DNA of 64,000 nucleotides from an uncultured Coxiellaceae bacterium (GCA_964647825.1 CAZYJL010000007.1:43268-107267), one strand, 5' to 3'. Counted from the stretch's first letter, positions 63,053-64,000 are shown. Numbers and translations: made by a program. Notes: a model not told the origin generated them from the letters alone.

Positions 63053-63098
63053 TGGGCCGTGTAGGGATCGAACCTACGACCTATTGATTAAGAGTCGG
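63053..63098 (-). other. 3'-partial tRNA-Lys(CUU)-like fragment (anticodon loop to acceptor 3' end), probable att site of an integrated element
   Basis: The reverse complement reads GACTCTTAATCAATAGGTCGTAGGTTCGATCCCTACACGGCCCA, which matches tRNA-Lys from the anticodon stem onward. No 5' half or D-arm is present. Confidence 0.6.
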
Positions 63099-63282
63099 GA
63101 CAGATTATGTTTTCATGGCACATCAAGGAAGGTCACCAAGTTTCACTTAATTACCTAATAACGCTTTATTTAAAGCATTTTTTGCTATATTCTTGCGCCA
63201 AGAAACGTCACCGCGTTTCACCCGCTGCCGGCTTTCAAAAGGAACCCACAGAGGAACCCAGGAATCAGATACAGGAACACCA

Positions 63283-64000
63283 ATGGCATTTACCGACAGA
63301 GACATCCAAAACCTTAAACCAAAGGCCAAACGCTACGATAAACGTGAAAAAAGCCGTAATGGCTTCGCAGTCCGCATCACACCGCTCGGCAAGAAAACCT
63401 TCCTATTCTTTTACACCTTCGAGGGCGTAAAACGGCGGATGACGTTGAGCACCTATTCCCCTACCACACCAGGCTCGCTGGCTAATGCCCACAAAAAGCA
63501 CCGTTCTGCCTTAGCTATCCTTGAGTCTGGCAAAGACCCAGCTTTGGCCAAAAAGACTGAGAAGCTGGAAGCCCGCACCGCACCCACTGTTAACGATTTA
63601 ATCAGCGAATTTATCGAAAAATGGTCAAAACCACGCAAACGGTCATGGAAAGAAGATCAGCGCATTCTAGATCGCGACGTCAAACCACTCTGGGGTAAGC
63701 GCAAGGCAAAGGATATTACCAAACGTGACATCATCCTCCTTCTAGAGGGCATACAAGCACGTGGCGCACCTATCGCCGCCAATAGAACACTTGCGTGTGT
63801 CCGGCGCATGTTTAACTTTGCCGTTGAGCGTGACATCCTCCAAATGACGCCTTGCCTATCCGTAAAGACATTATCTAAAGAAAACCGCCGTGAGCGCTGC
63901 CTCACAGCCGATGAAATTAAAAAATTCTGGCATGGGCTTGATGATGAAATGGCTGCTATATCGTCAGCAACTAAAATTGCCCTCAAATTACAGCTTGTCA
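63283..64000 (+). CDS. int: P4-type tyrosine integrase (N-terminal ~239 aa; continues beyond the window)
   Basis: MAFTDRDIQNLKPKAKRYDKRE...GFAVRITPLGKKTFLFFY matches the DUF4102 arm-binding domain and SAM-like core of the P4 integrase family. Open to the window edge. Confidence 0.8.
   Translation, partial: MAFTDRDIQNLKPKAKRYDKREKSRNGFAVRITPLGKKTFLFFYTFEGVKRRMTLSTYSPTTPGSLANAHKKHRSALAILESGKDPALAKKTEKLEARTAPTVNDLISEFIEKWSKPRKRSWKEDQRILDRDVKPLWGKRKAKDITKRDIILLLEGIQARGAPIAANRTLACVRRMFNFAVERDILQMTPCLSVKTLSKENRRERCLTADEIKKFWHGLDDEMAAISSATKIALKLQLV

What the first reader, a model, noticed from the sequence alone, without database searches (positions are those of the whole stretch)
63053..64000. tRNA-Lys 3' fragment plus a P4-type integrase: the edge of an integrated genomic island or prophage extending past the window
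The reverse complement of 63053-63098 is a near-perfect copy of the 3' ~46 nt of tRNA-Lys(CUU), covering anticodon loop, variable loop, T-arm and acceptor 3' strand. It lacks the 5' half, which is the signature of an att repeat left by site-specific integration at the tRNA anticodon loop. 185 bp away begins a P4-family tyrosine integrase with an intact N-terminus that runs off the window. The element therefore lies to the right. The Fic module just left of the fragment is outside the element.
Basis: seen in the sequence. Interest (0 to 1): 0.5.

Follow-up and report, generated by a model that had tools for sequence, protein, structure and literature searches.

The report
Mobile element inserted in tRNA-Lys gene
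The last 950 bases of the window are one edge of a mobile genetic element inserted into a lysine tRNA gene, because the same strain without the insertion exists in public data; this is a common, well-understood kind of genomic island boundary.

Summary

- **The fragment.** Window 63053-63096 (minus strand) is a 44/44 match to positions 30-73 of a tRNA-Lys(CUU) gene. No whole tRNA is present.
- **The empty site.** Two public contigs (L001, L002) match the window at 100% over 6371 and 1949 bases, up to base 63096. They then continue into the 5' half of an intact tRNA-Lys(CUU) and a tRNA-His. Everything right of 63096 is therefore inserted DNA. The Fic gene lies outside it.
- **The integrase.** It starts at 63283. 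Its 239 visible residues have the arm-binding and core-binding domains of P4-like tyrosine integrases and show no defect.
- **Relatives.** In 31 of 43 related integrase loci a tRNA 3' fragment lies about 220 nt upstream of the integrase. Six (with L049, seven) are complete elements of 6.7-9.3 kb, ending in a regenerated tRNA-Thr or tRNA-Lys.
- **Binding sites.** A tandem repeat before the integrase start (AGGAACCCA twice) recurs at the far end of related elements and co-varies by lineage. This fits arm-type binding sites.

The far end, cargo and catalytic domain lie beyond the window, and I could not retrieve them. This is an ordinary new member of a known kind.

The parts
63053..63096 (-). 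Displaced 3' part (positions 30-73, 44 nt) of tRNA-Lys(CUU). It forms the identity block of the junction next to the integrase (attR in the tRNA's orientation). No CCA is encoded.
   Evidence: It matches the intact tRNA-Lys(CUU) of the empty-site contig L001 (6328-6400, minus strand) at 44/44 bases. The window and L001/L002 diverge immediately after 63096. The sequence is unique in the window, and ARAGORN calls no tRNA in the window.
63097..63282 (+). Element-side att arm and integrase leader (186 nt), starting GGGACAGATTATG.
   Evidence: It is absent from the empty-site contigs. Relatives have a spacer of similar length (173-205 nt) and layout: RTTTCA motifs near the core and again about 75-105 nt further on, then a tandem repeat before the ATG.
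63124..63146 (+). First copy of a 23-nt imperfect direct repeat (CAAGGAAGGTCACCAAGTTTCAC). It carries the GTTTCAC motif and is a candidate protein-binding site.
   Evidence: the repeat finder family D1: 83% identity between the copies, 75 nt apart. RTTTCA motifs sit at matching distances from the core in relatives. A binding function is inferred, not shown.
63199..63221 (+). Second copy of the 23-nt repeat (CAAGAAACGTCACCGCGTTTCAC).
63240..63260 (+). Tandem AGGAACCCA-CAG-AGGAACCCA (period 12), 22-43 nt before the integrase ATG. It is a probable arm-type binding site.
   Evidence: It is the only such pair in the window, with 0 expected. An exact tandem repeat of at least 8 nt with period 10-12 occurs within 100 nt upstream of the integrase in 23 of 40 loci, against about 1% of shuffles. 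In 6 of 7 complete relatives the same lineage-specific pair recurs inside the far end, with 46-60 nt between it and the intact tRNA.
63283..64000 (+). 5' part (239 codons, about 58%) of a tyrosine integrase gene with a P4-like domain architecture. It runs off the window.
   Evidence: Pfam Arm-DNA-bind_3 at residues 3-92 and Phage_int_M at residues 111-191. There are 1326 homologues with E <= 1e-20; nearly all of the 120 listed are about 390-420 aa and also carry PF00589. The alignment starts at residue 1 and all 80 invariant columns are kept. GC is 0.47-0.50, against about 0.40 in the host flank.

Best explanation
Window 63053-64000 is one junction of a mobile element integrated by site-specific recombination into the anticodon stem-loop of a chromosomal tRNA-Lys(CUU) gene.

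**How integration produced this junction.** The circular form of the element carried its own copy of tRNA positions 30-73 inside attP. Its tyrosine integrase has an N-terminal arm-binding domain and a core-binding domain; a catalytic domain is presumed to lie beyond the window. The integrase paired attP with the tRNA gene and exchanged strands within the shared 44 nt. The most likely exchange point is the 7-nt anticodon loop, flanked by the TTGA/TCAA stem. The result has two parts:

- The tRNA's own 3' part stays next to its old downstream flank (the Fic side) and now abuts the element's integrase-side arm. This is what the window shows.
- The 5' half of the tRNA is completed by the element's copy at the far end, beyond the window.

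**The spacer.** The 186-nt spacer carries repeated motifs, including AGGAACCCA twice. These are probably arm-type sites that assemble the recombination complex and may also regulate the integrase gene.

**What kind of element.** By analogy with relatives, it is most likely a small integrative, self-replicating island of about 7 to more than 11 kb. The expected order is integrase, a variable gene slot, an AlpA-type excision regulator, and a primase/helicase. It may be a phage satellite.

**Shown versus inferred.**

- Shown: the fragment, the insertion point, the empty site in the same strain, the integrase N-terminal domains, and the conserved architecture in relatives.
- Inferred: the regenerated tRNA, the crossover position, the role of the repeats, the cargo, and present mobility.
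For: - **Empty site.** L001 (6371 nt) and L002 (1949 nt) are 100% identical to the window up to 63096. They then continue into the 5' half of an intact tRNA-Lys(CUU) and the 3' end of a tRNA-His.
- **Fragment.** It matches tRNA positions 30-73 at 44/44.
- **Integrase.** The expected domains are present and the N-terminal 239 aa are intact.
- **Clade-wide geometry.** In 31 of 43 relatives a minus-strand T arm sits about 180-440 nt (mostly about 220 nt) upstream of the integrase start. In many of them, including most close relatives, the fragment breaks at the anticodon stem-loop of tRNA-Lys, Thr, Asn or Arg, and ARAGORN calls none as a whole tRNA.
- **Complete relatives.**
  - Six elements of 6.65-9.3 kb are bounded by direct repeats of 41-47 nt (27-29 nt exact in two), with the same boundary at tRNA position 30.
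  - A seventh (L049, 65% integrase identity) is 7.9 kb.
- **Co-varying repeats.** Lineage-specific tandem repeats occur on both arms of 6 of 7 complete elements, are enriched upstream of the integrase and are unique in the window.
- **Cargo of relatives.** AlpA, Toprim/DnaB-like or DUF3987 primase-helicases, a DnaD-like loader, DUF5681, toxin-antitoxin pairs, and a small terminase subunit in Legionella longbeachae.
- **Composition.** GC rises from about 0.40 to 0.47-0.50 across the junction.
- **General principle.** A regenerated tRNA gene plus a displaced fragment mark the ends of an island. In the Islander survey, 3760 of 3919 islands have a 3' fragment and 2083 have an anticodon-centred attP (PMC4383910).
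Against: - The far end, the partner repeat, the catalytic domain and all cargo lie beyond base 64000 and could not be retrieved.
  - The source genome is not among the species representatives searched.
  - No protein more than 66% identical to the integrase exists in the 5.8-billion-protein collection.
  - Exact-pattern scans of metagenome and viral contigs found nothing.
- The window's neighbouring proteins are on record from an NCBI contig of 107,267 bp, but the integrase is not on record. This could mean that the gene is cut by a contig end or annotated as a pseudogene there.
- Element size cannot be predicted. Only 6 of the 16 relatives with at least 8.7 kb of sequence downstream of the integrase show the second repeat copy within the sequence held.
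- Satellite status is not established. Apart from the small terminase subunit in one relative, no capsid-redirection or packaging genes were found.
Confidence: 0.87

Rival explanations
1. The element is an immobile relic. It integrated here, but the integrase is truncated or broken beyond the window, or the far-end repeat has been lost, so only a scar plus a pseudogene remains.
For: The integrase is absent from the protein collection although its neighbours from the same NCBI contig are present. This would fit a pseudogene annotation. Decayed examples exist among relatives. L047 keeps only a 45-residue integrase piece about 2 kb from a tRNA-Lys/tRNA-His pair. L049 has a mutated fragment. L051 has no recognisable fragment.
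Against: The fragment is a perfect 44/44 match. The visible 239 codons have no stop or frameshift and keep all 80 invariant columns. The arm repeats are intact. An unoccupied site exists with a flank 100% identical over 6.4 kb, which implies a very recent gain or loss.
Confidence: 0.09
2. The junction is an assembly chimera. The assembler joined the chromosomal tRNA-Lys site to a free circular element, or to a copy integrated elsewhere, through the shared 44-nt repeat. The element would then not be integrated at this exact place in the sequenced organism.
For: A 44-nt exact repeat is shorter than many assembly k-mers can resolve. The two short-read contigs of the same strain end 16 and 90 nt past the divergence point at 63096, at or just beyond this tRNA. 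Both occupied and empty forms therefore seem to exist.
Against: The join is exactly the recombinant expected from integration. The same kind of junction is seen in more than 30 independent assemblies, including megabase-scale contigs such as L004 (2.9 Mb). A chimera would still imply that this element's attP matches this tRNA.
Confidence: 0.03
3. This concerns the type of element only and is compatible with the junction reading. The element is a full temperate prophage or a large conjugative or cargo island, not a small replicative, satellite-like island.
For: Ten of the 16 relatives with at least 8.7 kb of sequence downstream of the integrase show no second repeat copy within the sequence held. 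L008 carries large cargo such as a STAND/TIR protein. Nine relatives lie in predicted viral regions of about 10-37 kb.
Against: All seven complete relatives are 6.7-9.3 kb and lack capsid or tail genes. The closest relative (65% identity) is 7.9 kb with integrase, AlpA and primase. The larger Coxiellaceae relative L005 also has the DUF5681 plus Toprim-DUF3987 replication module rather than phage structural genes.
Confidence: 0.3

Closest known systems
tRNA-gene-integrated genomic islands with an anticodon-centred attP (Islander class 'A'; Williams 2002 sublocation classes, cited through PMC4383910)
   Same: The displaced 3' tRNA fragment runs from the anticodon stem-loop to the discriminator base. 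A tyrosine integrase gene lies inside the island next to the att site. The intact gene is expected to be regenerated at the other end, as it is in the relatives.
   Different: Nothing essential differs. In this clade the integrase always sits beside the displaced fragment and is transcribed away from it. In E. coli CP4-57, from my own knowledge, intA sits beside the intact ssrA gene instead.
Satellite phage P4 and the CP4-57-type integrases (Arm-DNA-bind_3 / DUF4102 integrase group)
   Same: The N-terminal arm-binding domain (PF13356) and central domain (PF22022) are the same. The integrase gene lies next to attP, with repeated sites between the core and the gene. Relatives carry AlpA and a primase/helicase.
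   Different: Sequence identity to any integrase in the phage collection is at most 31%. Relatives show no Psu/Delta/Sid capsid-hijack genes. The target is tRNA-Lys/Thr at the anticodon loop rather than P4's tRNA-Leu (leuX) site; the P4 target is from my own knowledge.
Minimal phage satellites and related elements: 'Type C' PICI-like elements (PMC10085698), PICMI (PMC10803314), marine VEIMEs (PMC9618062)
   Same: Relatives are 6.7-9.3 kb with an integrase, an AlpA regulator, a primase/helicase and little else. One relative (Legionella longbeachae, L051) carries an Sf6-type small terminase subunit.
   Different: No helper phage, packaging or induction evidence exists. The SatelliteFinder authors themselves treat integrase + AlpA + primase as too few markers to call a satellite. 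The cargo of the window's own element is unseen.

Membership tests
tRNA-integrated genomic island (Islander criteria) | A fragment of a tRNA gene, of the kind left by integration (3' part) | tested here: met
   A 44/44 match to positions 30-73 of tRNA-Lys(CUU). No whole tRNA is present in the window.
tRNA-integrated genomic island (Islander criteria) | An intact cognate tRNA gene in the same orientation at the other end, sharing the repeat | not testable with these tools
   It lies beyond base 64000, and the window could not be extended. The feature is met in seven relatives.
tRNA-integrated genomic island (Islander criteria) | An integrase gene inside the island | tested here: met
   The integrase ORF starts at 63283, 186 nt inside the insertion boundary.
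tRNA-integrated genomic island (Islander criteria) | Presence/absence polymorphism with a precise empty site | tested here: met
   L001 and L002 have a 100% identical flank, an intact tRNA-Lys, and diverge from the window after 63096.
P4-like (Arm-DNA-bind_3) tyrosine integrases | N-terminal arm-type DNA-binding domain PF13356 | tested here: met
   E = 3e-14, residues 3-92, nearly the full profile (positions 1-82 of 83).
P4-like (Arm-DNA-bind_3) tyrosine integrases | Central core-binding domain PF22022 | tested here: met
   E = 7.8e-10, residues 111-191.
P4-like (Arm-DNA-bind_3) tyrosine integrases | C-terminal catalytic domain PF00589 with the catalytic tyrosine | not testable with these tools
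   It lies beyond the window. Nearly all of the 120 listed homologues carry it.
P4-like (Arm-DNA-bind_3) tyrosine integrases | Recognisable sequence similarity to the integrase of phage P4 itself | not tested
   tblastn against the phage collection gave 89 hits, all below 60% identity, best 31%. P4 was not among the 15 rows listed.
Anticodon-loop class of tRNA att sites | [quoted passage not shown] | tested here: met
   The block covers positions 30-73. The same boundary at position 30 is seen in the Thr- and Lys-targeting relatives.
Anticodon-loop class of tRNA att sites | Strand exchange within the anticodon loop | not testable with these tools
   This needs biochemical mapping or sequence differences between the two repeat copies. 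It is inferred only.
Phage satellites (P4-like / PICI / PICMI) | Integrase plus AlpA-type regulator plus primase/replicase | tested here: inconclusive
   Only the integrase is visible in the window. AlpA and a primase-helicase are present in the relatives L003, L006, L016, L049 and L051; L004 and L005 showed only a Toprim or Toprim-DUF3987 protein.
Phage satellites (P4-like / PICI / PICMI) | Genes that redirect helper-phage capsids or packaging (Psu/Delta/Sid, a capsid morphogenesis gene, small terminase) | tested here: inconclusive
   No such gene was found in the relatives scanned against Pfam or PHROGs (L003, L005, L006, L016 and part of L004). One Sf6-type small terminase subunit is present in L051. 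DUF5681 is present in L005 and L006; its role is unknown.
Phage satellites (P4-like / PICI / PICMI) | Helper-phage-dependent induction and transfer | not testable with these tools
   This needs an experiment.

The most novel reading that the evidence does not exclude
The window's element may belong to an undescribed, widespread family of minimal mobile elements. The family would have these features:

- **Size:** about 7-9 kb.
- **Gene order:** integrase, a hypervariable gene slot, AlpA, primase/helicase.
- **Hosts:** Legionellales/Coxiellaceae and many uncultured Proteobacteria.
- **Targets:** the anticodon loops of tRNA-Lys, Thr, Asn and Arg, which share a CTGATTA-type stem-loop.
- **Recognition:** lineage-specific tandem arm sites that co-vary on both arms.
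- **Lifestyle:** phage satellites that carry defence, toxin-antitoxin or resistance cargo.

In this strain the element would still be active, since occupied and empty sites both exist.
Probability: 0.3. Interest if true: 0.4.

Novelty: new member of a known kind. Interest (0 to 1): 0.2.

Why it matters
For this genome, the finding fixes an island boundary to the base (63096/63097). It shows that the Fic module is native flank and that the strain is polymorphic for the insertion. That is useful for annotation and for judging which nearby genes are mobile.

More generally, the comparison defines a recognisable att architecture that could be used to find and delimit this clade of small elements in uncultured Legionellales-like bacteria:

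- a tRNA position 30-73 core;
- about 190 nt of spacer;
- co-varying tandem repeats on both arms.

Some of these elements carry a beta-lactamase operon, toxin-antitoxin pairs or defence-type genes. None of this changes what is known about how such elements work.

Tried and rejected
- **Rfam scan.** A permissive Rfam scan of 62700-63400 did not report the tRNA model for the 44-nt fragment; it gave only chance-level hits (E > 1). The fragment is too short for the whole-tRNA model, so this does not count against it.
- **Extending the window rightwards.** All attempts failed.
  - The Fic protein look-up returned only two short empty-site contigs.
  - The species-representative genome scan found no relative closer than 63%.
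  - The protein search found nothing above 66%.
  - The exact look-up of the partial integrase failed.
  - A 29-mer from the integrase was absent from metagenome and viral contigs.
  - A pattern for the predicted far end (GGAACCC tandem plus the tRNA-Lys 3' end) was absent from metagenome contigs.
- **A second att copy or older tandem island to the left.** Rejected. The window holds no other copy of the fragment with up to 3 mismatches, no other GGAACCC tandem and no tRNA.
- **A split or intron-containing tRNA.** Rejected. The sequence right of 63096 is an integrase leader and gene, and the 5' half of the tRNA is absent from the window.
- **The ORF after the integrase as a conserved family gene.** Rejected. 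Ten such ORFs (208-316 aa) show no mutual similarity by phmmer at E <= 0.1, so this position is a variable slot.
- **Sample origin.** A literature search for the two SRA run numbers found nothing. Williams 2002 (PMC100330) is not held in the library.
- **Host identity.** I did not pursue it with a large search. Hints point to Legionellales/Coxiellaceae: integrase relatives come from those groups, and L005's tRNA-Lys fragment differs from the window's by one base.

Full report
**1. The observation**

On the plus strand, window 63053-63096 reads TGGGCCGTGTAGGGATCGAACCTACGACCTATTGATTAAGAGTC. Its reverse complement is GA-CTCTTAA-TCAAT-AGGTC-GTAGG-TTCGATC-CCTAC-ACGGCCC-A. These segments are, in order:

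- the last two bases of the 5' anticodon-stem strand;
- an anticodon loop with anticodon CUU;
- the 3' stem strand;
- the variable loop;
- the T arm;
- the 3' acceptor strand;
- the discriminator base.

ARAGORN finds no tRNA in the whole 64-kb window. The 36-nt core occurs once in the window, with none expected by chance. A permissive Rfam scan does not report the tRNA model for so short a piece, which is uninformative.

The integrase ORF starts at ATG 63283 and stays open to the window end (239 codons). Pfam finds the arm-type DNA-binding domain PF13356 (3e-14) and the central integrase domain PF22022 (7.8e-10).

**2. The empty site**

Looking up the neighbouring Fic protein returned two short-read contigs from other sequencing runs: L001 (SRR10912418) and L002 (SRR10912416). 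They are 100% identical to the window over 6371 and 1949 bases, ending exactly at window base 63096.

After that base the window continues GGGACAGATTATG. The contigs continue AACTGCTCTACCAACTGAGCTAACGGCCC, which is the 5' half of the tRNA. ARAGORN calls an intact 73-nt tRNA-Lys(CUU) in L001 at 6328-6400 on the minus strand. It is followed by 27 nt of spacer and the 3' end of a tRNA-His (read from the sequence).

So the same strain, or a near-clone, exists without the insertion. This has four consequences:

- The insertion point is fixed to the base.
- The 44-nt fragment equals tRNA positions 30-73.
- Everything to the right of 63096 is inserted DNA.
- Fic (62340-62741), the 58-aa ORF, the tryptophan dioxygenase gene and the POT transporter gene are native flank.

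GC content rises from about 0.40 in the flank to 0.47-0.50 in the integrase region.

**3. The integrase**

The 239-aa query has 1326 homologues with E <= 1e-20. The best is 66% identical. Nearly all of the 120 listed are about 390-420 aa and add the catalytic domain PF00589. Aligned with seven of them, the window protein starts at the same residue and keeps all 80 invariant columns. Its only difference is a 3-residue insertion. About 58% of the gene is visible and shows no sign of decay. The catalytic domain cannot be checked.

Against 50,697 phage records the best identity is 31%. 'P4-type' is therefore a statement about domain architecture, not close kinship.

**4. Relatives show the same anatomy and supply the missing end**

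A scan of species-representative genomes gave 46 loci. They come mostly from uncultured Gammaproteobacteria and Coxiellaceae, plus other Proteobacteria. Legionella longbeachae and another Legionella appear in the protein search.

- **Fragment next to the integrase.**
  - In 31 of 43 relatives (32 of 44 loci counting the window), a T arm of a minus-strand tRNA lies about 180-440 nt, mostly about 220 nt, upstream of the integrase start. The window value is 222 nt.
  - In many of these, including most close relatives, the tRNA-like sequence breaks off at the anticodon stem-loop.
  - The targets are tRNA-Lys(CUU or UUU), Thr(CGU or UGU), Asn(GUU) and Arg(UCU), which share a CTGATTA-type stem-loop.
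  - ARAGORN calls none of them as a whole tRNA.
- **Complete elements.**
  - In six loci an intact tRNA of the same kind lies 6.65-9.3 kb to the right on the same strand as the fragment.
  - It shares a direct repeat of 41-47 nt (27-29 nt exact in two older insertions) with the same boundary at tRNA position 30.
  - The spacer to the integrase is 173-205 nt.
  - The closest relative (P0001, 65% identity; L049) is a 7.9-kb element bounded by tRNA-Thr(UGU) and a slightly mutated fragment.
- **Unseen far ends.** The other ten loci with at least 8.7 kb of sequence downstream of the integrase show no second copy within the sequence held. Element size in this clade therefore varies.

In this clade the integrase lies beside the displaced fragment, never beside the intact tRNA.

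**5. The att arm**

The 186-nt spacer (63097-63282) is not random filler. It holds two features:

- a 23-nt imperfect repeat (63124-63146 and 63199-63221) carrying GTCACC..GTTTCAC;
- a tandem AGGAACCCA-CAG-AGGAACCCA at 63240-63260.

Relatives have RTTTCA motifs at matching distances from the core, about 14 and 24 nt and again about 109 and 119 nt. They also have a tandem repeat with a period of 10-12 nt (12 in most) shortly before the ATG. An exact tandem of at least 8 nt occurs there in 23 of 40 loci, against about 1% of shuffled controls.

The repeat sequence differs by lineage: GGAACCC, GCTACCC, GCTAGCC, GATACCC and others. In 6 of 7 complete elements the same lineage-specific pair occurs a second time, in the same orientation, inside the far end, with 46-60 nt between it and the intact tRNA. 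It occurs almost nowhere else in the 13-20-kb locus. This was first noticed as a 27-nt exact match between window 63235-63261 and the far end of L004.

Sites that flank the core on both arms of attP and co-vary between lineages are what arm-type binding sites of a two-domain integrase look like. That they bind the integrase's N-terminal domain, rather than an excision factor, is inference. In the window the pair is unique, so the far end is not in the window.

**6. What the element probably is**

The complete relatives carry the following, in order:

- the integrase;
- one non-conserved ORF (ten examples show no mutual similarity) or a RelE/MqsA-like pair;
- an AlpA-family regulator;
- a replication module, either a DnaD-like loader plus a Toprim-DnaB-type primase/helicase, or Toprim/DUF3987, or D5_N/DUF5906;
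- DUF5681;
- small variable cargo, such as an M48 peptidase or a SAP-domain protein.

No capsid or tail genes were found in the relatives scanned against Pfam or PHROGs. The Legionella longbeachae relative adds an Sf6-type small terminase subunit. A Coxiellaceae relative whose tRNA-Lys fragment differs from the window's by one base carries a beta-lactamase with BlaR1/BlaI-like regulators.

This gene set resembles minimal phage satellites. However, the SatelliteFinder authors regard integrase + AlpA + primase alone as too little to call a satellite (PMC10085698). Comparable small elements are the marine VEIMEs (PMC9618062) and the PICMIs (PMC10803314; title and abstract only). For the window's own element this is extrapolation from relatives that are at most 66% identical in the integrase.

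**7. Mechanism**

*Established knowledge.* Tyrosine integrases of this architecture recombine an attP that contains a copy of part of a tRNA gene with the chromosomal gene. This regenerates the gene at one junction and displaces the original part to the other. That is the Islander principle: 3760 of 3919 mapped islands have a 3' fragment, and 2083 have an anticodon-centred attP (PMC4383910).

*Shown here.*

- the displaced part;
- the exact insertion point;
- the empty site;
- the integrase N-terminal domains;
- the conserved arm architecture.

*Inferred.*

- strand exchange within the anticodon loop, between the TTGA/TCAA stem halves;
- regeneration of tRNA-Lys at the unseen end;
- AlpA-assisted excision;
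- autonomous replication;
- possible phage-assisted transfer.

**8. Rivals**

- **Decayed relic (about 0.09).**
  - For: the integrase is missing from the protein collection although its neighbours from an NCBI contig of 107,267 bp are on record.
  - Against: the perfect fragment, the intact N-terminal codons and the clonal empty site.
- **Chimeric assembly across the 44-nt repeat (about 0.03).** It cannot be excluded without reads, but it would still imply the same element-target relationship.
- **A larger prophage or island (about 0.3).** This is a question of element type rather than a rival to the junction reading, and it stays open.

**9. Verdict**

This is a new member of a very common kind of feature. 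The added value is threefold:

- a base-exact boundary;
- proof of presence/absence polymorphism;
- an att-site signature that predicts what the far end should look like.

Interest is low, at about 0.2.

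Noticed in passing
window 62734-62910 (minus strand) and 62340-62741 (plus strand): The 58-aa ORF convergent with the short (133-aa) Fic gene overlaps its 3' end by 8 nt and contains S-C-G-V-E-G. This fits the [S/T]xxxE[G/N] inhibitory motif of small Fic antitoxins such as VbhA and YhfG (motif recalled from my own knowledge). Pfam gives no hit. The convergent arrangement would be unusual for such a pair. Both genes are present unchanged in the empty-site contigs.
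   Followed up: partly
window 62904-62935: A 16-nt unit (TTTTCATTGATACATT) is duplicated in tandem across the start codon of the 58-aa ORF. It is also present in L001 and L002.
   Followed up: no
L004 9961-9979 and 19067-19085; L006, L007, L014, L016, L049 likewise: Lineage-specific tandem 7-9-mers with period 12 (GGAACCC, GCTACCC, GCTAGCC) occur on both arms of the att site of complete related elements and almost nowhere else in the loci. They co-vary between lineages and are a ready-made test case for arm-site specificity.
   Followed up: partly
L009 9960-9978 versus about 16380-16410: This one complete relative breaks the rule. It has GGAACCT tandems next to the integrase but GTGTACCCC tandems at the far end. 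It could be a hybrid or a composite of two elements.
   Followed up: no
L005 2159-5357: A related element in an uncultured Coxiellaceae genome inserted at a near-identical tRNA-Lys(CUU) fragment. It carries a serine beta-lactamase-family gene with BlaR1-like and BlaI-like regulators, plus a RelE/MqsA-like pair.
   Followed up: no
the position directly after the integrase in L003, L004, L006, L007, L009, L013, L014, L016, L049, L051: The ORF directly after the integrase (208-316 aa) is always present but never homologous between elements, by phmmer at E <= 0.1. In L005 and L049 a RelE/MqsA-like pair follows the integrase; in L049 it precedes the variable ORF. This looks like a hypervariable cargo slot.
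   Followed up: partly
L047 7307-7441 and 9373-9548: Another gammaproteobacterial genome has the same tRNA-His/tRNA-Lys(CUU) pair, with only a 45-residue remnant of a related integrase about 2 kb downstream. This suggests that the tRNA pair is a recurrent insertion site.
   Followed up: no
window 63283-63999: The window's Fic, dioxygenase, transporter and 58-aa proteins are on record from an NCBI contig of 107,267 bp. The integrase is not on record in any form. Possible reasons are a pseudogene annotation, a contig end, or a gap in the collection. Unresolved.
   Followed up: partly
L008 12312-15716: A related element in a Coxiellaceae genome carries a 1134-aa protein with LuxR-type HTH, weak TIR, NB-ARC/STAND NTPase and TPR domains. 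It may be a defence gene carried as island cargo.
   Followed up: no
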